64,000 nucleotides of DNA from Pachysolen tannophilus NRRL Y-2460. Taxonomy: Eukaryota. The stretch's first letter is position 1. The number at the start of each line of letters is the position of its first letter. Shown here one piece after another: positions 16,533 to 62,902 of this stretch. The stretch lies in contig KV454016.1 in assembly GCA_001661245.1 (NCBI GenBank), forward strand, positions 371,381-435,380, read 5' to 3'. The translations under genes were made by a program, and so were the position numbers. The notes beneath the pieces are model-generated. The model did no database searches and was not told the origin of the DNA. It was given only the letters and a program-made list of their open reading frames with translations.

Positions 16533-16676
16533 GATTACCTGGTATTAATCATATATTATTATATTTAATGAACATTATTAAACCTTACTATTTAATAAAA
16601 AAATTTTTTTTTTTTTCACTTTTTTATTTTCAGTTTCTTTTATATTTCAATACGAAATCATTGAAATATAACAACG

Positions 16677-18121
16677 ATGAGCTCTTCAACCACTAAGGCA
16701 GGAGCAGTGGTATGTTCTAGATGTAAAATTGAAGAGTCGCTATTGGTGACTAGAAAAGAGGCCTTTTGTTCAAGTTGCTTCACAAAGTTTATATCGAACA
16801 AGCAAAGAAAGTTAATGTCCAGTGATAAATTTAAAGTAAAATATGGCAAACAAGTGAATGAAATACATAAAGTTTTGCTCTGTTTATCCTTTGGTAGATC
16901 TTCTTTGGTGCTATTGGATATTATTATAAATTTATTGAAAGAACAAAGATCAATACATAGGGGAAGGCAAGGTTTTAAACTAGTAGTAGTACATATTCTT
17001 GATGATCATCATAGACTTGAATTTATAAAAGAAACCATTAAAAAGATTAATTTTTTTATAATTTAGGTGATGAAAAGATAGATATTGAATTTAAGATTTT
17101 GAATATAGATTCTTTTTTATCAGGATCTTATGATTTTGAGAGAATTAAATTGTTTAAAGATTTCAATTCAATGATTATTAAAGATGGATCATCACTTGAT
17201 GAAAAATTTCCTCAAACAGTACAAGAATTATTATCAAAATGTTCTAGTAATTCATCGGTTGAAGATTTACTTGATATTATTTATAATGAGTTGTATTTCA
17301 ATACATGTAAATCTGAGGACTGTCATACTATGATATTTGGTCATTCGATGACTAAATTAGCAGTTGATATTTTAGCTTTAACTATCAAGGGTAGAGGATC
17401 ATTAGTGAACCAAAGAGTGACAGATGGTATTCATACTTACCAGAAGTACCAGGTAGAGGTTGTGCATCCATTGAGAGATGTCTTGGATTCAGAAATCGAT
17501 AAGTATCTTGATTTGAATAATTTGATGCAGTTTTGCGATAATAATAACGATACCAATACTACTTTAGCTATAAAGAAATTAACAAAGAATATGACTATTG
17601 GTGAAATAACACGGCGGTATTTCGATACCCTCGATAAAGATTATTCTGAAACAGTCTCAACAGTGGTTAAAATTGGATCCAAATTAATAGATCCCATTTC
17701 TGAAAAAAATGATGAAAAAGATGACAACAATGGTATTCAGTTTTGTAAAATTTGCAATTGCAAGATATTTAAAAATCCTCAGGCTTGGCTCAATAGAATA
17801 ACTGTGGAGGAACCTTTTCCAATAACTAATGATGAAGAACGTGCTGCATATGAAATGTATAAAGAAGCAGCATTACAAATTTCACCAGATAATCTAGAAG
17901 AAGAAGAAGAAGAAGAAGAAGAAGAAGGTGTACCGCAGAAAGAACCTATATCTCTCTGCTACGGTTGTCTTGTTACCATAGGTGGAGTTCCAAAAGAAGG
18001 ACTCGACTGGCCAGTCAGAAACCAAGAAACACAAGAAATCTTGAATGAATATATTCTAACCGACAATGGAAGCGATGACGATGGTAACGATGATGATAAC
18101 GATGATGATGGTGGGAACTGA
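16677..18121 (+). CDS. NCS2: cytoplasmic tRNA 2-thiolation protein 2, split by a 1-nt frameshift at T7 (17051-17057)
   Basis: CxRC...RKEAFCxxCF, LSFGxSSLVLLD, FGHSMTKLA, KGRGS, HPLRDV, TVVKIGSKL, LCYGC; adding one T joins the two ORFs. Confidence 0.9.
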
Positions 18122-18426
18122 GCCAGAAGTCCTATCAGGCACAATCTTCTCCGCGGAGAAGAGTTTTTTGTATAGTAAATATCATCGCTGCAGTAAATAA
18201 AACGCCTCTAAATTTCTCCAAAACGGAAAACTTTCAGATTTAGAAGATCTTTTGAGGTTTCCTACTAGGAGACGGAGAAGATTTTGTTTTTGTAGTAATA
18301 ATTTAATTTCACATAGAATAAATAATGATAAATAGTGTTGTGTGTAAGCTTTGATTGATGGGTAATCATAATCTCTTTTTTCTTTTTTTCAGTAGGTAGA
18401 TGAGCTGTCATTGTGAATAGATTAGA

Positions 18427-21400
18427 ATGGAAGTGTATCCGATAGAATATACAGCTCAATTAGGTCCTTTGATTTTTGTTCAAGGTTTAGGGAAGGATGG
18501 TATACCTCAAGGTTCTACTAATAATTTGTTAAATCCTCCTCCATCGGCTCCAATAATAAATAATCCGTTGTTGATTGATGGTGAGCTTATAAGAAGGGAT
18601 TCACAGACGATTAGGTGTTCTTATGGGTTGGAATTGGTTTCATTGTTTAACCAATTTAATTTGGCAAATGATTGCATTTGGGATAATGATTTAGTAAGGT
18701 TTGGTACAAATAGCAATAGTATAAGTAGTGGTAGCGGTATAGCTACCACTAAGGCTACGCCTAGTGATGGGTTAAAATTTAGGTTTAAGTTTATTGATAG
18801 CGAATTATTACTACCTCAGCTGAAAGAATCTTCGGCTGCCAATTCTAGTGGTAGTAATAGTAATAATAATAGCAGCGCTACTAATTCTGAATCATTGGAG
18901 TCTGATGGGTCTAGTCCCGTTTCTTCGAAAACCACTTATTCTTCAAGTTTTGTATCTCCATTATCTCCATTCAATGAGAGTTCGGATTTGTATCCGGATG
19001 GGATACTCTCTGCCAACTGGATTCAAAAATATAGAGATATTACTCCTGCTGTCTTTGTAAGTGTTCATGAATTGGATGGTGATTTAACTGACAAAGAAGA
19101 GATTTCAAAATCTGACAATGAAATAATAAAAGAGATAAATTATCTTAAATTGCATTTTATTAAAAGGAATATCAAATTTCTCTCAATCGTAGTATGTTCG
19201 AGATCAATATTGATGAACCCAGAATTAAATGAAAGGATTAATAATTTAAGAAAAGCAACAAATTTAAATGCTAAAAATGGTTTATTATTTTTACCTTCAG
19301 GAACTGAAAAAGAATTAAAATTTTTTTTCAAAAATAATTTATTGACTTTATTACGATCACTTTCATTAGAATACTATAATTCCATTGAAAAGAAAATTAG
19401 AAAAAAAAATTTAAAGTTTTATCAACATTGAGTAATGCTGAAGATTTGAAAAATATTCCAAAAGAATTAATTCAACCATTTTATGAAGCTAGATATGATT
19501 TAAAATTATCTATAATTTCAGAATTAAAATTACAACATGAAAATTCTGTGAAATTATACGAATTAGCATATGTATCTATGGTTAAAATTTGTTCTACTAT
19601 ACCAATGAAACACACTAGATGGCAAGATTTAAGAATGTTATTAGATTATACTGCTTTCAACATTGTGAAGTTGTATTTATACTTACAAAATTGTAATTTG
19701 TCATATACAAAATTTGATATTCATATTCAAAACGTTTTGTTGTTTTTGAAAAAACATAATGTATCGATAAATAAAAATTATTGGGTAATAAGTTGGTTAA
19801 GCTACCAATTCCAATGGTTGGGAGAATTGTTAGAATTTGTGCCTGATGGAATAGTGCCTGTTGATAATGCTTTGTCTTTACGTAATTCCGATAATGATTT
19901 ACTACAAATGCCAAATGGCGGTTACATTTTTCTTCAGGCTAATTCGTTATTGAAAAGGCGTAAGATTCAAGCATCAAAATATCAAAATGGTAATAACAAG
20001 ATTGACATTGACGATACTTTTGATAGTTATCTATCATTGCTACCAGAGGATGAGGTTAAATTTGATTATTTTGCAAAATCCAATGATTTATTGGAGAAAT
20101 CACTCAGGTCTTTTAGTAGATCAGAATACCTCAAGTTTAATAGAACAATTATAAATATTCACTTGGAAATGGGTGAGAATTTTTTCCAGTTACAGAAATA
20201 TGAAATGTCTATCATTAATTTTGAAAAATGTTTGGAGTTGTTTAATTTGAATAACTTACAACTCAATTGGTATTATTTACTTTCCATAATATATTTAAGG
20301 CTTTACCAAAGTTATTACAAGATGGAGAAAAAAAAAGAAATAATTTTTTATTTATTGAAATTGAGTTCTTTAGAAGGTAAATATTCTCAAAATCATATGG
20401 AGGTTATGGAGTCAGAAACGAAATTTGATAAAAAATTTGCAGAACCTGTTGTGTTTGATGAGAAACAAAATTTTTTCACTGTTGAATTTTTATTTAAAGA
20501 ATCATCTACTCCAATATCTCTGTGTTCTAAATTTCAACTCAAGTTAACATCAAATTTGAATGAGCTATTAGGAACGGTAAAAGTCAAAGAGATTGTGATT
20601 ACTTTTAAAGATGATTTATTAATGCCTATCATCTTGAAACATTCAGAAGAAATGGAAATGAAGAAAATAGTTGACATTAATAATTTGAAAGAAGAACAAG
20701 ATACGAATTTACAAAAAAATGTATTAATTGGATACTTGAATTTAAATTTTTCTCTGACCGGAAATAAAAATATCAAGTATTTGCAATTTACAGATATAGT
20801 TACTACAAAACTTGGAACTACTTCTTTATTGGATATTGATTTATTAGTTTCTTATAAGGAGTTGGTTGAAGTAAAATTTAAGCCAGAGATACAATTGGAC
20901 AAGGTTTCAAATCGGTACGAATGGTTGATATTAGATAAAGACAATAATAGTAAGGATAATGAAAAAGATGACTACAACTTTAACACATTTTTTCTTAAAA
21001 AGAGACAAATAATTAAAACTTATGACCCTCTTTTCACCAGTATTGTACCCAGAAAACCTGATACAAAAATTTTATTAGACTATGATCATAATAGAGATCA
21101 TTTTTATATTGGAGAATTAATCCATTTCAATATTAGTGTGATTAACAATGATAGTGGGAATGTTAGTCTTAATTTGAAAAGTACTATCAATTTAAACGAT
21201 GAAAATGAAGATACTAACGTTGAGTCTTATTGGGAAGATTCAACAAGCGATGAAATATATTTGGAGTCATTAAAATCAAACAATTCCAAAGTTTCTAAGA
21301 AACTTTTCATTAAGATACCAAATATTCTTGAAAAAGACAAAAATTTTCTTCATTTAAAAATACTGATAAAATTTTTTGTTAATGATAATATGAATTTACC

Positions 21401-22331
21401 AGTTGAAGATTCAGTTGTTATTAAGAATATACCTATATTGAGGAAAATTTTCAATTTAACTTTTAGTGTTCTGCCAAGATATATTAAAGAAGATAATATG
21501 ATGCCTTCTCCATTTATAATACATGATGGAGATCTGAAGTTACCTAAACCTGTCAGATTATGGTGCGGTAAATCATCTATTAGAATCAATACCTTGGATA
21601 TAAAAGTTAAAGAAATTAAACTAGTTGTTAATACTTCAGATAATGATGAATATATTTGTGAATTAGTAGAAAATAATGATGATAATAATTTTAATGAAGA
21701 TGAACAACATACAATTATACATAAAAAAAATTTTAAAACTTTATCAAAAACAGGTAATATCCATCGAAATATTCCAATTGAAGCAAAGTTAATAATTTAT
21801 TGGAGTAGGAAATCTTTGAATGATGAAGAAGAAGAAGATGGAAACATTAACGAGTATTTTTCACCATTATGGAAAGTTTCTTTGCCTTTATCTGATCCAA
21901 GGGTCTTATTGAATATTAAAAAAATAATTGAAAATGGTAATGATAATATTTTAAATTTCAAATATATTTTAGAAAATCCAACTCCAAGGATATTTCAATT
22001 TTCCAGTTCCTTGATTTATTCAACTGATGTACAAGATGATGATGAAGGTAAAGAAAAAATACAGATGATTAGTGATCGAGGAGATGTTAAAAATCAAACT
22101 TTCCCTGTTCTACCATTTACTAGACAAGTCTTGAACTATTATGGTCTTATTATGAAAAATGACAAATTCAAAACAAAAGAAGGTAATAGCGATGATGATT
22201 GGATCAAATTACCTGTAGTTTTGAAAATTTATGATTTGAATTATAAGATTTATTTACCAACTTTAATTTCTAATGATTCTTTACAAATTGATCAAAATGG
22301 TGATGTTTTTTACAGATCACAATCACTATAA
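18427..22331 (+). CDS. TRAPPC11 (Foie gras/Gryzun) TRAPPIII subunit, split by a 1-nt frameshift at A9 (19401-19409)
   Basis: MEVYPxEY...PLIFVQGL start, SPLSPF...LYPDGILSxxWIxK, C-terminal DPRVLL...LENPT...LPFTR, all typical of fungal TRAPPC11; adding one A joins the ORFs. Confidence 0.8.
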
Positions 22332-52449: not shown

Positions 52450-53128
52450 TTATTCTTCATCTCCTTCTTCATTATCATCTTCATCATCTACTAAAGCATC
52501 GAATGCATTAAATGTAACTGTATTTTTATCTGCAATTACATCTCTTGGATCTGCTGGTTTCGAGCTACCAATATTTTTATTATTTGGCTTTGCTTTAACA
52601 AAAGAATCTTTGACTGATTCTCTGAAAACATCTCTTGAAACTTCACCTTCAGCTGAACCAAAGGATTTCTTTGTCTTTGCAGTTGTGATCCACCCATCTG
52701 CATCTGGTCTTGGTAAAAACTCTTTATGTTTATTTTTCCTGAAAATTGGACGATGATCTGAATTAATTATTATTATTATTATTATTATGAATGATAAGGT
52801 CAGTATATAAATATGAATATATATAATAAATTAAACTATTTGTCTAAACCTCATTTTTACTTACGATTTGCTGAAGATCTTCTTCTGCCATTTGGAAAAT
52901 GATTTCTAATTGTATTATAAATTCAAATTGTGAGTAATTATATCTCAAGGAAAAACCACTAAAATAATCTTAAACTCTGGAAATTACTTACTCATCATTT
53001 TCACATACTGCTGCTAATGCAACTTTAACATCTTCAACCATTTTTACAAAACCTGAAAGGTCCGCACCTTGTGGAAGAGATCCTGCATCTTTATACTTGA
53101 GTAATTCTTCTTCAGTATATCTGACCAT
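52450..53128 (-). CDS. CAF20: eIF4E-binding protein p20; exons 53128-52992, 52905-52865, 52757-52450 (absent from the ORF track)
   Basis: MVRYTEEELL (YxxxxL-phi), GRRRSS, DADGW, KPNNKNIGSSKPADPRDVIADK...FNAFDAL; two GTAAGT...YAG introns with TACTCAC/TACTGAC branch points that keep the frame. Confidence 0.93.
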
Positions 53129-53566: not shown

Positions 53567-56220
53567 TTAAACAGTGACCAATCTCCCACGTCTAAAGCTT
53601 TCGTTATTGACATTATCTTCATCACTACTCAAGTCTCCATCGACATCTAGTTCGGCTAAGAAAGAGCCTACGTCATTGACAATTTTACTTGAAACCATAC
53701 TTGAGCCATCGAGAAAGTTGTTGCTAATACCATTACCGTTGCCATTATTATTGCCATTATCGTTGCTGCTATTTGGTTTCCCGCCACCATTGCTGGATAT
53801 CTGTGATCTCAAATTGCTGCCGCTAATTGCCTGTCTTAAATCTGTTGTTCTAGGCGCACCGTTATTGTGTCTATGTGTATGTGCAGAAGAAGCAAACATT
53901 GAAGTAGGCGTGAAAGACCTATTCATAATGCTTGATGAGTAAATGCTCCGAATTTCTAAATGGTTGTTTGGTAAATTTGAGTTGGTGGTAGTAGAGGAGG
54001 AAGTTAATGTTCCATTAGGGTCAAGCTCTTGCAGTTGTAATTGCAATTGCAGTTGCAGTTGCAGTTGGTCTAGGGACAAAGAAACCATGTTCAAATGAGA
54101 TCTATTTCCAGTAGAAGATGCAAGTGTATTACTTCTTGGAATGCTAACAATGTAATCTTGGGACTGATGATCATTTAACGATTTGTGAATATCTATCCAA
54201 TTTGTTATTTTATCTTCATCGTTTGTTTGATGATATTGTACTAAATATTTTTTAACATCTTGCCTGGATAATATCAACTGTGATGTAGAAGATTCAAATG
54301 ATTCAGATGGATTTGATACATCATTAATAATAATTTCATTACTCCACAAGTTTTTCTCTTTACGATATTTAATTTTGTTAATAATAACTTGAGTTAAATT
54401 ATTCAACTTTAAAAATAAAGATGAGTGATAAATGAAATAATATCCAATTGAATCTTTTAAAATTTCCTTTTCTGTGAATTCCATAGGATTTTCTTCTGAT
54501 AATTGCCATTCAAAGAAAAAGGGTAAACCATTAGCAATAGCGTTAATACCAAATTTTGTTATTGATAAATCTAATAATTCCAATAATTGTAAAATTTTTT
54601 CTGTTTCAATTTTTTGTAAAAGTAAATAATCATGAATTGTATTAAAAAATTTAAACAATGGATTTTTAAAATCATTAGAAATATAATGATTATAATTTGG
54701 CTGTAAATACAATTCATTACTATCGTTTAATTCATATTTTAAAAAAATCTTTGTTATCTTGAAAAATTTACTACAAATCTCATGATCTTTATCTATTAAA
54801 AACTTGAAACAATCTTCCAAGCTTTCAAGATCACAATGATTTCTTTGCTTTGTGATTAGGCTATTACCATCATAATCATAACAATGATTGAAAACCGTTA
54901 GTATATCGCCTAATACAGTTAATACCAAATCGTTATTTCTCTTTGAGACACCGCCAGCGACATCGTTAATAATCTTCAACAAATCGTTAATCATATCACT
55001 GATTTGATTTTTATAATAAATGTGACTAGTCAATGAACCAATACAAGTTGTATAACTTTGAACTAATGCGTCATCTTTTTCAATTTCTGATTTCTCTAAT
55101 AATGTCAACTGACCATCAACTAGACTTTTCAAAGTATCTGGTATAACCAACCCAATTAATGTAACACTTGAAGTTAATAAACTATTAATCTTATTTGTTA
55201 ATATAAATTTTTTTTATAATCTTTAGATGTTTTCAATTTTTCCAATAAATTTTCCAAAAATTTAAACCTTAATTGAATTGGAGTCCAAGAAGTTGCCAAT
55301 TGAATTAATGAATCTGTCCATCCATTATTAATCGAGTCACTATATTTCAAAATATATGTAATCAATGAATTTGATGATATATTTAACTGGACTTCAACAG
55401 ATAAAGATGTTGAATCAAATAAAGATCTCAAAGATTCCAAGGCCTCATCATTGACACTAGTTTCAGAATCATCTGTTTTATCATGGACAACTGAATAAGC
55501 AGAGCGTGTAGTTGTAATTTTTTTAACTCCAAAACTATTGGTCCTTCTTAATTCATCACCATTGGTATTTGATATATATGGTCTTAACTTTGAATTTAAA
55601 ATATCATCTCTATGATCAATGTTAGACAAGAGTAAAGGCATACATGTATCAATTAAATCTTGAGATACAGCAGTATTATAACCAATACAATAACTAAAAC
55701 ATCTAATAGACTTCAATCCTATAATTATCCATTCTTTTACATTAGGTTCTATTGGGTGAAATCCAAAATTTAAAAAACTTCTTGCTAAATCATCAAATTT
55801 TGCTAATAAATCTTTATCACCATTAAATAAATCACTCCTAATTTTTGAACAAAAATTCTTAAATATTATTAAACAATATTGACATAATGATAAATCTTTT
55901 GTCAATAATATATATTTAAAAATAACCAACAAATTACTTGAAAAAACATCCAAATTATCAGAACATTTATCAATTAAATTCTTTATGATATCCAATGAAA
56001 CCAATAAATTACCACTTCTACTATGATTATAATCATTAATAACTTTCTTTTGTAAAAAAGTACCAATTTTTAATAATTTAGTTCTTCTTGTAGTAGCATA
56101 GTAAAGTAAATAACTCAATTCAGATGGATTGGGCTTTTTATCAACATTCTTCCCCGGAGGATAGCATTGCAATATTAATCGCTGGTGCTTCGACTTCAAA
56201 GATAGCTTCATCATCTGCAT
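53567..56220 (-). CDS. EFR3: Stt4 PI4-kinase complex subunit, split by a 1-nt frameshift at A8 (55208-55215)
   Basis: KHQRLILQCYP...KPNPSELSYLLYYATTRRTKL, WTPIQLRF, SLLTSSVTLIGL, HIYYKNQISDMI; adding one A joins the ORFs; adjacent to CEF1. Confidence 0.92.
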
Positions 56221-58767: not shown

Positions 58768-60552
58768 TTAATCAAACTTTATTCCAGCGCTTGGCTTCCA
58801 CAAGCCACTATGAGCAGCGTTTTCTTTAGACTGGGAGTTTACTTCTCCCTCCTCACCACTGTTTTTATTAACCTTGTGAACCATTGATTCATTTGAATCT
58901 ATACTATTATCATTATCGTTATTATTTTCATCTTCAACTTCTAATGTTTGCGTTTTGGGCATAGAATTTGACGTCAACTTCTGTTGTTTCAAATGAGATG
59001 TCTTTTGGTGAGCCATCTGATCTTCTAAAGAGGTTTCTAGTTTTTTGCGAGCAAAAGCAAATTGATCACATTCGGCAATTAACTCACAAGTAATTGTATT
59101 TACAAAATTATTGTAAAACGTTTTCCCCTGTGATAAATTGTTCAAAATCTCACTGTATCCATCAAAGGCTTCTTCCAAAATTTTTAAACTGTTAGCTCTT
59201 TTTTCATTAACGTTTTGTAAGTAAGAAGATGATCTTGATAAGAATATTTCATTTTCTTTATCTATCTTTTTTTCAAGATTAATTTGTTCATTTTTAAAAC
59301 TTTGCAAATCAGCAAAGTCACTATCAAAAAGTTTTAAAACATTTTTTTCATAAACAGATTCAAAAGATGATTCATCAAGGGATTTCTCTTCTTCAATTTG
59401 CGATAAATTTTTTTTATATTCTGATATCAAAATTGATAAAATATTCAAATTTTCTGATTTCAAATGCAAATTCTCTATAAATTGACAATTTCTATCGATC
59501 AACTTTTTGGCCTTATTAATTAACTCATTTAAATTATTAATTGACGACAAAATATTCTGGTCTAAATTTACAACTTTCGACAGAGGTATAAAATTCTTTA
59601 ATTCTTCTTTACCACTTGGTGAATCAACTTCAGTCATCAATTTAACATAGGGCACTAAGCTATTAATTTGTTCTTTAATTACATTATCACCATCTTTAGC
59701 CTGATTTAAATAAGTCTCAAATTTTTCAATTTTTAGAAATAAACCTTCTAGTTCTGATGGATCTCTGTTCCAGGCTTTTCCATATTTTCGTCTCAATGCA
59801 GCATCTTCTTCAGCTTCGAATTTCATTCTTTCCCTACAATTGACTATCAAATCATTACTTTTCGAAGAAAGTTTGTTTAATTCATCCATAGCTTTTTGTA
59901 ATCGCAAACATCCTCCTTGCTTCAGTAATTCACTACAATTTAGTAATACATTATCGGGTAGACTCTGGGGCTTTGATATGGAATCAATTGAAGAAGGTAA
60001 ATTTCTTTCGTTTAAAAAATCTTTGAGCATTTTGTTTAACTGGTTGATTGGGTTTATTAAATTTTTATCAACAAATTCCTGTTGACGTTCTTTAAAAGCT
60101 TGAGAAGTCTTAATTACAATATAAGGTAATAAGTTTTCAAATAACAATTTTTGATTTGATTCTTTCAAAATTTTAATTGGATTTTCAAAATCCAGTGGAA
60201 TCAATGTTTTAACCATTGAAGCACCAATAATTGGTTTCAAATCTTTCAGCAGTGGTACATGTACAAGATAGATTAAATTATTATCACGTTCTGCTGTTGT
60301 TAAAGACTCCTTAACAATTTTATTAAAATTTTGTAATTCATTAACCACTTTTGTACTTACATTTTTAGAATATTCTAATCCATTATTTGATTCTTCAAAT
60401 GCTATTTTTAAATGTGCAATCTGTTCACCATATTTAAATTTATTCAAATAATTCAACGAAGTCCTATAATTTGCCACTGCTCTAAAATGGAATTTTTTCA
60501 AAAGTATATGGTTCATAATTTTCAGTTTTAATAAAAACTGAGATTTATTGTT
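58768..60552 (-). CDS. RIM20: 3' part of RIM20/PalA (end of the BRO1 domain plus the ALIX V domain), separated from its 5' part by an inversion
   Basis: HILLKKFHFRAVANYR, KYGEQIAHL, AERDNNLIYL, NLPSSID, NLSQGKTFYN, terminal GLWKPSAGIKFD; no ATG at the break. Confidence 0.9.
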   Translation of the reverse strand, partial: NNKSQFLLKLKIMNHILLKKFHFRAVANYRTSLNYLNKFKYGEQIAHLKIAFEESNNGLEYSKNVSTKVVNELQNFNKIVKESLTTAERDNNLIYLVHVPLLKDLKPIIGASMVKTLIPLDFENPIKILKESNQKLLFENLLPYIVIKTSQAFKERQQEFVDKNLINPINQLNKMLKDFLNERNLPSSIDSISKPQSLPDNVLLNCSELLKQGGCLRLQKAMDELNKLSSKSNDLIVNCRERMKFEAEEDAALRRKYGKAWNRDPSELEGLFLKIEKFETYLNQAKDGDNVIKEQINSLVPYVKLMTEVDSPSGKEELKNFIPLSKVVNLDQNILSSINNLNELINKAKKLIDRNCQFIENLHLKSENLNILSILISEYKKNLSQIEEEKSLDESSFESVYEKNVLKLFDSDFADLQSFKNEQINLEKKIDKENEIFLSRSSSYLQNVNEKRANSLKILEEAFDGYSEILNNLSQGKTFYNNFVNTITCELIAECDQFAFARKKLETSLEDQMAHQKTSHLKQQKLTSNSMPKTQTLEVEDENNNDNDNSIDSNESMVHKVNKNSGEEGEVNSQSKENAAHSGLWKPSAGIKFD

Positions 60553-60597
60553 AGACACGTTTTCCGTGTTGGTGCAAGAGCTGAAATCCCAACTTAA
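60553..60597 (+). CDS. JLP1: displaced 3' end of JLP1 (RHVFRVGARAEIPT*)
   Basis: AGA CAC GTT TTC CGT GTT GGT GCA AGA GCT GAA ATC CCA ACT TAA matches the TauD/Jlp1 C-terminal RHxFRx...AExP motif missing from the - strand ORF. Confidence 0.85.
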   Translation, partial: RHVFRVGARAEIPT

Positions 60598-61006
60598 TAA
60601 CTCAAGTCACTTTTTTAAGTGCCTTTCTTTTTTTATTTTATTTTATTTTTTTTTTTTTTTTTCCTTTTCAACTTTATACTATTTACTGATGACTCAAATA
60701 TACGATATGAACTTACCCAAATGACGACCTTAGACTAGATCCCATAGTCTTTAGATTTGTTTAAAACTATTTGAAGTTTGTCTGTACCGTAGTTTTGGTG
60801 GCCTTTTGGTGGTCTTTCCCAATTGGGAAACTCAGTTCTGTTGTGTGATGTGGTGATGATCAAAATCAAAACAACACAACAAATATATATTTTATATTTT
60901 ATATTTTATATATTTAAATTAATGTTATAGCAATTTATAGCAATTCAAGTCGCAAGAGAAGGAGAAGAGGTACAAAAAAAAAACCAAAAAAAACACAAAA
61001 ATAACA

Positions 61007-61690
61007 ATGGAAGATTCATCGAATCTATTGTATATTCCCTATCATAGATCGGATAGTATAAAAATATACCAACTGTTTAAAGATATAATATCAAAAGATT
61101 TTTATCAGTCAGCTACGTTATTTGAAAAAGATTTACAAGATATTAACAGTTTGAGGGATAAATATATAGCGATTATTAATAGCGAGGGTAATAATATTGA
61201 TTATTCAAATTTTGTTAATCAGTTGAAGAATTATTACAATCAATTGTGTTCTATTTCTAAGAAATTTCCAAATAATGAAATTGAATTTACTTATTATAGT
61301 AATGATTTAACATATCAGTCTTCTAAAAAAACTATTTTAAAATCGTTTAATTTTGAAAAATTGAATGTGCTTTATAATATAGGCTCATTTTTTTCTATTT
61401 ATGCTTTTAAACAGTCCAGAGATGATGATATAGGTTTAAAAAATTCATGTTTATATTTTCAATACTCGGCTGGATGTTTTGAATTTATTGAAAGTTTTTC
61501 CGAGAAAATTGATGATTTTCAAATACCATTAGAATATTCATCAGAAATTGTATCTGGTTTAAAAAATTTAATGTTAGCACAAGCACAAGAGACATTTTGG
61601 CAAAAGGCAAGAAAGGATGGTTTGAATGTTTCTGTAATTGCTAAATTATCTGCACAAGTTGCAAGTTATTATGAAATGTCATTTGATAGT
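61007..61690 (+). CDS. RIM20: 5' part of RIM20/PalA (BRO1 domain), inside the inverted segment
   Basis: LLYIPYHRS, FEKLNVLYNIG, GLKNSCLYFQYSAGCF, LMLAQAQETFWQKA, IAKLSAQVASYY; then runs into antisense JLP1. Confidence 0.9.
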
Positions 61691-62761
61691 CTTTTCTTCA
61701 GTATCCCAATCAAATAAGGCACTATGACAAGCACGTCTATTATCCCAAACAACAACGGTATCTTTTTCCCACTTGGCTCTGGTTTGGATATCCACACCTG
61801 TAGCGATGAAGTTATACAAGAAGTTTAAAATTGCATCACTTTCTTCTTTCTTGAAACCCTTGATGTATCTAGTGAATTGTGGATTAACATAAATAGATTT
61901 TTTCTTGGTTACCGGATGAGTACGAACTACTGGATGTTCATGAGCAACAGGTTCACGGCGAACATGTCCATTACCTAAACGAGCAGTTTCTGCTTGTTCG
62001 AAACCCGAATGAACAGCTGTTAATCCTTCTAAAATTTTTTGAAAATCTGGTGAAAGCCTATCGTATGCTTCTTGTGTATCAGCAAAAGCAGTATCACCAC
62101 CAACTGTTGGTCCATCAAGAATACCCAAGAAAGTCAATCCGAGGGGTTGTAATTCGTATGAAACATCCGAGTGCCATGTCATTGTTGTAATATGTTGTTT
62201 TAAATAAGAACCGGATGATGCCTTAGTATATTTATCCTTATAGACTAAATGAATATTTGGATGACCTCTTGGAGCTCCTGAAGTTGGATGAGAATGTAAA
62301 GGACCATAATATTCACCATATTGTTCAACAAAATCTGGACCTTGAGAAGCAAAATCTTGATCTCTAAAAATGACAACACCTTTTTGAGCAACATATAAGG
62401 CTAAATCATTTTTAGCAGCATCTGAAAGTTTTGATAATTGAATACCATGAATAATTGTACCAAACTTTGGAGTTAATTCTTCAATTTTAATTGAATTAGA
62501 TTCTAAATCATTTGATGGAAATAAATTTTTTAATTTAGGATCTGCATCTAAACCTCTATCTCTAAATTTAAATTCTTTATAAGGTTCTTGCCTTTCAGTT
62601 AAATCCCATGTTGGAGCAAACGCTGGATAAGTTAATTTTTCAGTATCTTCATCAGAAATTAATAAATATTTCTTATCTTCTGATAAGTGTCTATGAATTG
62701 AATATGTGGTCTTGTAAGCACCAACACTATGTACTTCTTTTTTTTCGTTTTCTACAGTCAT
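61691..62761 (-). CDS. JLP1: Fe(II)/alpha-ketoglutarate sulfonate dioxygenase (TauD family), C-terminus displaced by the inversion
   Basis: HPTSGAP, WHSDVSYELQP, GGDTAF, HPVVRTHPVT, WDNRRACHSA; stops before the conserved RH..R. Confidence 0.92.
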
Positions 62762-62902
62762 AATTATTTATAAGAAAGTAAACTTTTTTCTGATTTAATT
62801 TTAAAAATAAACTTGAACATAATTTTATGGAATATCATTCATATATATATATATATATATAGATAATATTAGCCAACCAAGACAAACTTAAAGCTCTTTG
62901 AA

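What the first reader, a model, noticed from the sequence alone, without database searches (positions are those of the whole stretch)
60553..61690. ~1.13 kb inversion that cuts RIM20 and JLP1 at once; flipping it back restores both genes in frame
Seen in sequence: the RIM20 BRO1 half is on + (61007 to ~61690, ...AQVASYYEMSFDS) and its continuation is on - from 60552 (NNKSQ...HILLKKFHFRAVANYR). JLP1 runs on - to ...HSALFDWDTEEK(TIK*), and its missing C-terminus RHVFRVGARAEIPT* is on + at 60553-60597. Reverse-complementing 60553-61690 gives intact JLP1 (DWDTEEK-RHVFR, the same spacing as recalled Jlp1 DWEEPIH-RHAFR) and intact RIM20 (YYEMSFDS-NNKSQ), arranged in tandem on -. Breakpoints are ambiguous by a few codons (60553/61684 is also in frame). 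There are no long inverted repeats at the ends; the nearby AGAC/GTCT microhomology does not restore the frames. Neither half looks degenerate and JLP1 keeps sulfur-type promoter motifs, so the event is very recent, polymorphic or artefactual. Inference: if real, one flip would disable alkaline-pH (Rim101) signalling and sulfonate use together, and a reversible switch is conceivable. Misassembly is at least as likely.
Basis: partly seen in the sequence, partly recalled or inferred. Interest (0 to 1): 0.9.

Follow-up and report, generated by a model that had tools for sequence, protein, structure and literature searches.

The report
Assembly-flipped segment splitting RIM20 and JLP1
A 1.1-kb piece of this yeast (Pachysolen tannophilus) record sits back to front and cuts two genes, but independent read sets of the same strain show the normal orientation, so it is almost certainly an assembly error and not biology.

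Summary
In the window, segment 60550-61693 (1,144 bp) is inverted relative to its flanks. This splits RIM20 (BRO1 + ALIX V domain) and the sulfonate dioxygenase gene JLP1 (TauD family). Flipping it back gives an 822-aa RIM20 and a 371-aa JLP1, both continuous with their homologues.

The public annotation of P. tannophilus NRRL Y-2460 carries the same defect. Its JLP1 model ends in the nonsense tail, and its RIM20 fragment model starts at the breakpoint codon.

Logan contigs from 4 of 4 public runs laid (3 samples, 2 studies, depth 23-178, no base differences) join 61693 directly to 60549 on opposite strands. That is the un-inverted form, with RIM20 intact. No laid contig carries either junction found in the window. 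The JLP1-side junction was not covered and is inferred.

The breakpoints have no inverted repeats and no microhomology, and no base is lost or gained. Three homopolymer frameshifts elsewhere in the window point to draft-quality sequence.

Verdict: assembly artefact (about 0.88). A real double knockout or a switch is not supported. Low interest, but two public gene models need correcting.

The parts
60550..61693 (.). The 1,144-bp segment that is inverted in the record relative to its flanks. It holds the JLP1 3' end, the JLP1-RIM20 intergenic region and the RIM20 5' half.
   Evidence: in 4 of 4 runs one contig joins 61693 directly to 60549 on opposite strands ('both' = 0, 255 or more letters on each side). 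It then continues through the segment to about 60640-60647; the pair 60550/61693 restores ORFs of 822 and 371 aa.
61007..61693 (+). RIM20 codons 1-229 (N-terminal part of the BRO1 domain)
   Evidence: PF03097 BRO1 profile 1-220 of 385, E 5e-59; the ORF runs on into a short non-homologous tail and a stop at 61717.
58768..60549 (-). RIM20 codons 230-822 plus stop (rest of the BRO1 domain and the ALIX V domain)
   Evidence: BRO1 profile 233-385 (E 1e-34) and PF13949 profile 2-294 of 295 (E 3e-53); the public 483-aa fragment model P0001 starts exactly at 60549.
61694..62761 (-). JLP1 (TauD-family sulfonate dioxygenase) codons 1-356
   Evidence: PF02668 TauD profile 2-258 of 267, E 2e-57; 49-59% identity to named fungal sulfonate dioxygenases / Jlp1p.
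60550..60597 (+). JLP1 codons 357-371 plus stop, the displaced conserved C-terminus
   Evidence: + strand frame reads ...RHVFRVGARAEIPT then stop; it aligns with the conserved C-terminal block of 9 of 9 homologues.
60598..61006 (.). JLP1 3' flank and RIM20 upstream region, with a T-rich tract (60629-60674) and an A-rich tract (60959-61004). Both tracts lie inside the segment, not at its ends.
   Evidence: I1-I7 are low-complexity T/A tracts; all four Logan contigs end in the T tract at about 60639-60647.

Best explanation
The inversion is an error of the public draft assembly of Pachysolen tannophilus NRRL Y-2460. It is not a feature of the yeast's chromosome. In the real genome JLP1 and RIM20 lie intact, in tandem on the minus strand: JLP1 (371 aa), about 410 bp of spacer, then RIM20 (822 aa).

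At some assembly, scaffolding or gap-patching step, a 1,144-bp piece (60550-61693) was placed in the wrong orientation. Nothing was lost or added. The annotation built on that sequence therefore carries a JLP1 model with a false 4-residue tail and only a fragment model for RIM20.

Shown: the RIM20-side junction in reads is the un-inverted one, and the record and its public gene models carry the inverted one.

Inferred: the JLP1-side junction, and which step of the assembly process produced the flip.
For: 1.. Logan contigs from 4 of 4 runs laid (X1, X2, X4, X5; 3 samples, 2 studies; contig depths 22.6, 126.5, 178.2, 122) each run 61005->61693 and then straight on 60549->59300 on the other strand. 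There are no letters between, no ambiguity ('both' = 0) and 0 other letters. The same contig also covers 60677-60858 in the segment's orientation. About 1,050 of the segment's 1,144 bases are therefore linked to the left flank in the un-inverted sense.

2.. No laid contig crosses 60549|60550 or 61693|61694 as written in the window. A second arrangement at appreciable frequency would put a branch in the assembly graph at these points, yet the contigs run through them in all four runs.

3.. 5 of 7 listed runs hold 0.95-0.96 of the sampled words. None holds all of them.

4.. The flip is in the public record, so it was not introduced afterwards.
- P0007, named PACTADRAFT_86430 of P. tannophilus NRRL Y-2460, lies on a 1,128,252-bp contig and ends in the same false tail as the window.
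- P0001 is the window's own 483-aa RIM20 fragment on a contig of the same length. It begins at the very codon of the breakpoint.

5.. The inversion is perfectly balanced: both genes are restored with no base missing or added.. It has blunt ends with 0 nt of microhomology and no flanking inverted repeat. This is what a mis-oriented piece of sequence looks like.

6.. Three other genes in the same 64 kb (EFR3, a TRAPPC11-like gene, CTU2) are each broken by a frame change exactly at a homopolymer run (T8, A9, T7), with no intron signals. This fits draft-level sequence quality.

7. (passages of PMC13232491). The public scaffold-level assembly of this strain is described as having contig N50 in the 10^4 class against scaffold N50 in the 10^6 class, so it is built from many joined contigs.
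Against: 1. The JLP1-side junction was not observed. No contig was laid on 61757-62575 or on 60550-60617 in any run. The tool states that a filter drops some records and that a hole proves nothing.

2. Contigs drop rare variants, so a minority inverted form in a culture cannot be excluded.

3. I do not know which reads the assembly was built from. If it came from a DNA preparation not among these runs, the flip could be real in that preparation.

4. The breakpoints lie in unique coding sequence, not at repeats, where assemblers usually go wrong. There are no N gaps in the window. The step that produced the error is therefore unexplained.

Confidence: 0.88

Rival explanations
1. The inversion is real but private. 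A spontaneous, repeat-free (end-joining type) 1.1-kb inversion arose in the particular culture or DNA preparation used for the assembly, or exists there as a sub-population. It would give a rim20 jlp1 double mutant that other stocks of the strain lack.
For: - The record and its annotation do carry the inversion.
- The breakpoints lie in unique sequence, where assembly errors are less expected.
- Contigs cannot exclude rare variants, and the source reads of the assembly are unknown to me (caveats).
Against: - 4 of 4 runs from 3 samples and 2 studies, identical in sequence to the window over the parts laid, show only the un-inverted RIM20 junction, with contigs running straight through it.
- End-joining inversions usually leave small deletions or insertions at one or both junctions. 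Here none is needed to restore both frames and both alignments.
- Neither half shows any decay.
Confidence: 0.09
2. The segment is a reversible genetic switch (flip/flop) that turns RIM20 and JLP1 off and on together.
For: - The species does have one proven invertible region, at MAT (PMC6692504 passages).
- The inversion is exact and balanced.
Against: - The MAT switch uses 2-kb inverted repeats around an 8-kb region. Here there are no inverted repeats and no microhomology at the ends.
- No recombinase-type domain was found in the 34 ORFs of the window that I scanned.
- Only one orientation is seen in four read sets.
- A switch that truncates two unrelated proteins in mid-domain has no known precedent or plausible mechanism without repeats.
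Confidence: 0.01
3. Both arrangements exist in the genome as two loci: an intact RIM20 copy elsewhere, plus this rearranged copy.
For: It would reconcile the record with the contigs without invoking an error.
Against: - Two loci sharing these sequences would create branch points at 60549 and 61693 and break the contigs there. The contigs run through in all four runs.
- No laid contig shows the window's junctions.
- The protein search with the RIM20 C-part found only one P. tannophilus sequence (1 of 6 hits, the rest at 34% identity or less).
Confidence: 0.02

Closest known systems
Orientation (inversion) misassembly of a short piece in a scaffolded draft genome
   Same: - Simple, perfectly balanced flip of a short stretch.
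- Contradicted by independent read-derived contigs.
- Occurs in a draft built from many joined contigs (passages).
- Other signs of draft-level errors lie nearby.
   Different: - No N gap and no repeat marks the joins, as would be usual for a wrongly oriented scaffold member.
- The step that produced it is not identified.
Flip/flop mating-type switch of Pachysolen tannophilus (also Ogataea and Komagataella)
   Same: Same species. A DNA segment whose orientation decides which genes are expressed (PMC6692504 passages).
   Different: - MAT uses 2-kb inverted repeats flanking an 8-kb region and was shown experimentally to invert.
- Here there are no repeats.
- The breakpoints cut through protein domains.
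- Reads show one orientation only.
Rim20 / PalA (BRO1-domain adaptor of the Rim101/PacC alkaline-pH pathway) and Jlp1 (Fe(II)/2-oxoglutarate sulfonate dioxygenase)
   Same: - The restored genes have the full domain make-up: BRO1 plus ALIX V domain, and TauD.
- They align end to end with fungal homologues, several of them named Jlp1p or sulfonate dioxygenase.
   Different: - Nothing unusual once the segment is turned.
I did not test it with a tree.

Membership tests
Assembly inversion artefact | Independent reads or contigs contradict the record's junctions | tested here: met
   4 of 4 runs carry the joint 61693 to 60549 on opposite strands. 0 of 4 runs have a laid contig across 60549|60550 or 61693|61694. 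The second (JLP1-side) true junction was not covered.
Assembly inversion artefact | The flip is present in the deposited record, not introduced later | tested here: met
   the named public protein P0007 ends in the same false tail. P0001 starts at codon 60549.
Assembly inversion artefact | A cause is visible at the joins (gap, repeat, contig end) | tested here: inconclusive
   There are no Ns in the window and no repeats at the ends. The only hint is that the public fragment model begins exactly at the breakpoint base.
Invertible-DNA switch (flip/flop or invertase type) | Inverted repeats or recombination sites flanking the segment | tested here: not met
   none of the 25 longest of 687 inverted-repeat pairs pairs the two ends. 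The longest are T/A tracts inside the segment; 0 nt of shared sequence at either breakpoint.
Invertible-DNA switch (flip/flop or invertase type) | Both orientations present in one population | tested here: not met
   only the un-inverted joint appears in contigs of 4 runs. Rare forms cannot be excluded from contigs.
Invertible-DNA switch (flip/flop or invertase type) | A recombinase encoded nearby | tested here: not met
   0 of 34 ORFs scanned have a recombinase, invertase or transposase Pfam domain. These were 34 of the 63 ORFs of 110 aa or more. 25 shorter overlapping ORFs were left out, and of the 4 in the finding region, 3 were covered.
BRO1-domain / ALIX family (Rim20/PalA type) | Complete BRO1 domain followed by a V domain | tested here: met
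   BRO1 profile 1-220 on the + piece and 233-385 on the - piece, with the V domain at 2-294 of 295; the re-joined protein is continuous with 5 of 5 homologues.
TauD/TfdA dioxygenases (Jlp1 type) | TauD domain including the conserved C-terminal R-H-x-x-R block | tested here: met
   profile 2-258 of 267 in the record as it stands; the block is regained only in the un-inverted reading and is present in 9 of 9 homologues (one has R-I in place of R-H). That these arginines bind 2-oxoglutarate and the sulfonate is recalled from E. coli TauD and was not tested.

The most novel reading that the evidence does not exclude
The inverted form is a real allele. It would be a spontaneous, repeat-free, base-perfect 1.1-kb inversion present in the culture that was assembled, or as a minority in the strain, and it would knock out the alkaline-pH adaptor RIM20 and the sulfonate dioxygenase JLP1 in a single event. 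The assembler would then have captured a genuine laboratory-stock polymorphism.
Probability: 0.08. Interest if true: 0.3.

Novelty: not a real feature. Interest (0 to 1): 0.08.

Why it matters
The finding has no biological importance, but it has practical value.

- Two public gene models of P. tannophilus NRRL Y-2460 are wrong because of this flip. The JLP1 model lacks its conserved C-terminal block. RIM20 is represented only by a fragment.
- Comparative studies that score gene presence or absence, or pathway completeness, could wrongly record this yeast as lacking a functional Rim101-pathway adaptor or sulfonate dioxygenase. P. tannophilus is the reference species for the CUG-Ala clade.
- The three homopolymer frameshifts nearby suggest that the record needs polishing more widely.
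- The case shows that a tool-less reader can spot a true structural anomaly in a record. It also shows that public read sets can settle such a case quickly.

Tried and rejected
- **Whole-genome search.** Not possible: no genome is held for this window (error).
- **RNA evidence.** No RNA holder was listed among the runs, so expression could not be examined.
- **JLP1 body and the first 68 bases of the segment.** No contig was laid on 61757-62575 or on 60550-60617 in any of the 4 runs. The tool warns that a filter drops records, so this says nothing, and the JLP1-side junction remains inferred.
- **Short stray matches.** The 19-22-nt matches at 59600-59618 and 62638-62659, with their loose ends, come from other contigs. 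I disregarded them.
- **Search for an intact RIM20 of this species.** The search with the 593-aa C-part covered candidates of 326-1038 aa, which would include an 822-aa protein. It returned only the window's own fragment plus 5 distant homologues at 34% identity or less. No independent protein record of the intact form was found.
At the breakpoints fixed by the reads there is none.
- **Promoter motifs.** The result was weak.
- **Paper searches.** 0 papers hold both 'Pachysolen' and 'RIM20'. The genome paper of the strain could not be read under the PMC id I tried, which I recalled (not held). The assembly method is therefore unknown to me.
- **Earlier notes of this scan.** Nothing by place, by words or by sequence.
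- **Duplicated-locus idea.** Rejected, because the contigs run unbranched through the joint.

Full report
**What is in the window**

The region is AT-rich yeast DNA: the window is 30.8% G+C and has no Ns. Four pieces make up the finding.
- On the + strand an ORF starts at 61007. It matches the first 220 of 385 positions of the Pfam BRO1 domain (E 5e-59) and then runs into a short unrelated tail and a stop at 61717.
- On the - strand an ORF from about 60550 down to 58768 matches BRO1 positions 233-385 and then a complete ALIX V domain.
- On the - strand from 62761 a TauD-family ORF matches profile positions 2-258 of 267. It ends in four unrelated residues and a stop at about 61680.
- Its conserved C-terminus, 15 codons plus a stop, is on the + strand at 60550-60597.

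**One inversion explains everything**

In a script I re-inverted the segment for 30 x 35 pairs of candidate breakpoints. Two long - strand ORFs (>800 aa and >=370 aa) reappear only for one value of (a+b) mod 3, so a single flip sets both frames right at once.

With the breakpoints later fixed by reads (60550/61693), the products are an 822-aa RIM20 and a 371-aa JLP1.
- The re-joined RIM20 aligns across the junction (...FDSL|NKSQ...) with 5 of 5 homologues, with no gap within six residues.
- The re-joined JLP1 (...TEE|VRH...) regains the C-terminal R-H-x-x-R...AE-P block. That block is present in 9 of 9 homologues aligned (one has R-I in place of R-H), and 5 of 9 have identical spacing while 4 of 9 have one more residue.

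This is far beyond chance. By recall, not tested here, the two arginines of that block correspond to the 2-oxoglutarate- and sulfonate-binding arginines of E. coli TauD. The JLP1 product as written in the record would then be inactive.

**Which organism, and is the flip in the public record?**

The best JLP1 hit is P0007. NCBI names it PACTADRAFT_86430 of Pachysolen tannophilus NRRL Y-2460, and it lies on a contig of 1,128,252 bp. It ends with the same false tail as the window.

The best RIM20 hit is P0001, flagged as encoded by the window itself and on a contig of the same length.
- It is a 483-aa fragment with no start and no stop.
- It matches the window only when CTG is read as alanine (table 26; 6 CTG codons), as expected for this species.
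- It begins at base 60549, exactly the breakpoint.

The deposited assembly and its annotation therefore carry the inversion. It was not introduced later.

**What public reads say**

Five of seven listed public runs hold 0.95-0.96 of the sampled 31-mers of 59800-62500. I laid the Logan contigs of four of them (X1, X2, X4, X5; three samples, two studies) on 59300-62780.

In each of the four runs one contig (2,919 to 5,298 letters; depth 22.6 to 178.2) behaves the same way.
- It runs along 61005->61693 and continues without any intervening letter along 60549->59300 on the opposite strand.
- The joint is listed as 'opposite strands' with 'both' = 0 and 255 or more letters on either side.
- There are no base differences from the window.
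- The same contig also covers 60677-60858 in the segment's orientation and ends in the T tract at about 60639-60647.

This is the un-inverted arrangement, with RIM20 intact. No laid contig crosses 60549|60550 or 61693|61694 as the window has them. If both arrangements were present at appreciable frequency, the assembly graph would branch at these points and the contigs would stop there. They do not, in any of the four runs.

**Limits of that evidence**

- No contig was laid on 61757-62575 (the JLP1 body) or on 60550-60617. The tool warns that a filter removes some records and that a hole proves nothing. The JLP1-side junction is therefore inferred from the frame and the homology, not seen.
- Contigs drop rare variants, so a minority form cannot be excluded.
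- I do not know which reads the assembly was built from.

**Anatomy of the breakpoints**

No inverted repeat pairs the two ends. The longest inverted repeats in 59800-62500 are T-rich and A-rich tracts inside the segment. At the exact breakpoints there is no microhomology at all, and no base is lost or gained.

A biological repeat-mediated flip is therefore excluded. An end-joining inversion that left both junctions base-perfect would be unusual. A piece of sequence laid in backwards gives exactly this picture.

What remains unexplained is why the joins fall in unique coding sequence with no gap. The only hint is that the fragment gene model starts exactly at 60549.

**Quality of the surrounding record**

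I scanned 34 of the 63 ORFs of 110 aa or more against Pfam. I left out 25 shorter overlapping ORFs and the 4 in the finding region. Three genes are each split into two overlapping ORFs in different frames.

| Gene | ORFs | Strand | Frame change at |
|---|---|---|---|
| EFR3 | 55201-56220 and 53570-55213 | - | T8, 55208-55215 |
| TRAPPC11-like | 18421-19428 and 19401-22328 | + | A9, 19401-19409 |
| CTU2 | 16665-17063 and 17051-18118 | + | T7, 17051-17057 |

None has intron signals at the frame change. They look like homopolymer-length errors, although I could not check them against reads. No recombinase-type domain was found (0 of 34).

Passages of PMC13232491 describe the public scaffold-level assembly of this strain as having contig N50 in the 10^4 class and scaffold N50 in the 10^6 class, so it is built from many joined contigs.

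**Comparison with what is known**

P. tannophilus has one proven invertible region, the MAT flip/flop: an 8-kb region between 2-kb inverted repeats, induced to invert in nitrogen-depleted medium (passages of PMC6692504). The present segment shares none of its defining features.

No paper in the searchable library mentions Pachysolen together with RIM20 (0 papers). Earlier notes of this scan held nothing on this genome or sequence.

**Verdict**

The best explanation is an orientation error in the draft assembly (0.88). In the real chromosome JLP1 and RIM20 are intact and lie in tandem.

The rivals are:
- a real inversion private to the assembled culture, or present as a minority (about 0.09);
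- a two-locus arrangement (about 0.02);
- a reversible switch (about 0.01).

Interest is low. The useful outcome is that two public gene models, and probably several homopolymer runs nearby, need correction.

Noticed in passing
window 53570-56220 (-), frame change at T8 run 55208-55215: EFR3 is split into two overlapping ORFs in different frames exactly at a homopolymer run, with no intron signals. Pfam EFR3 profile positions 1-299 fall on one ORF and 308-391 on the other. It is probably a homopolymer-length error in the record, or a real frameshift.
   Followed up: partly
window 18421-22328 (+), frame change at A9 run 19401-19409: A TRAPPC11-like gene (Foie-gras_1 + Gryzun domains) has an upstream 336-aa ORF that overlaps it in another frame at a homopolymer run. 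It looks like one gene broken by a single-base length error.
   Followed up: partly
window 16665-18118 (+), frame change at T7 run 17051-17057: CTU2 (tRNA 2-thiolation protein 2) is likewise split into two overlapping ORFs at a homopolymer run.
   Followed up: partly
window 62640-62735 (-): The public JLP1 model (P0007, 339 aa) skips 21 codons near the N-terminus that are in frame and open in the window. This modelled intron is probably unnecessary.
   Followed up: no
window 52453-53100 (-): The CAF20 ORF matches only Pfam profile positions 63-149 of 150. Upstream there are GTAAGT/GTATGT donor-like motifs and short coding stretches, so the gene probably has one or two 5' introns.
   Followed up: no
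window 58768-60549 (-): The public fragment protein P0001 matches the window only with CTG read as alanine (6 CTG codons). This is direct confirmation that the record belongs to the CUG-Ala yeast clade.
   Followed up: yes
window 60629-60674 and 60959-61004: A T-rich tract and an A-rich tract form an imperfect inverted pair (46 nt, 72% complementary) inside the JLP1-RIM20 spacer. All four Logan contigs end in the T tract. They are ordinary low-complexity tracts of a yeast intergenic region, not at the breakpoints.
   Followed up: yes
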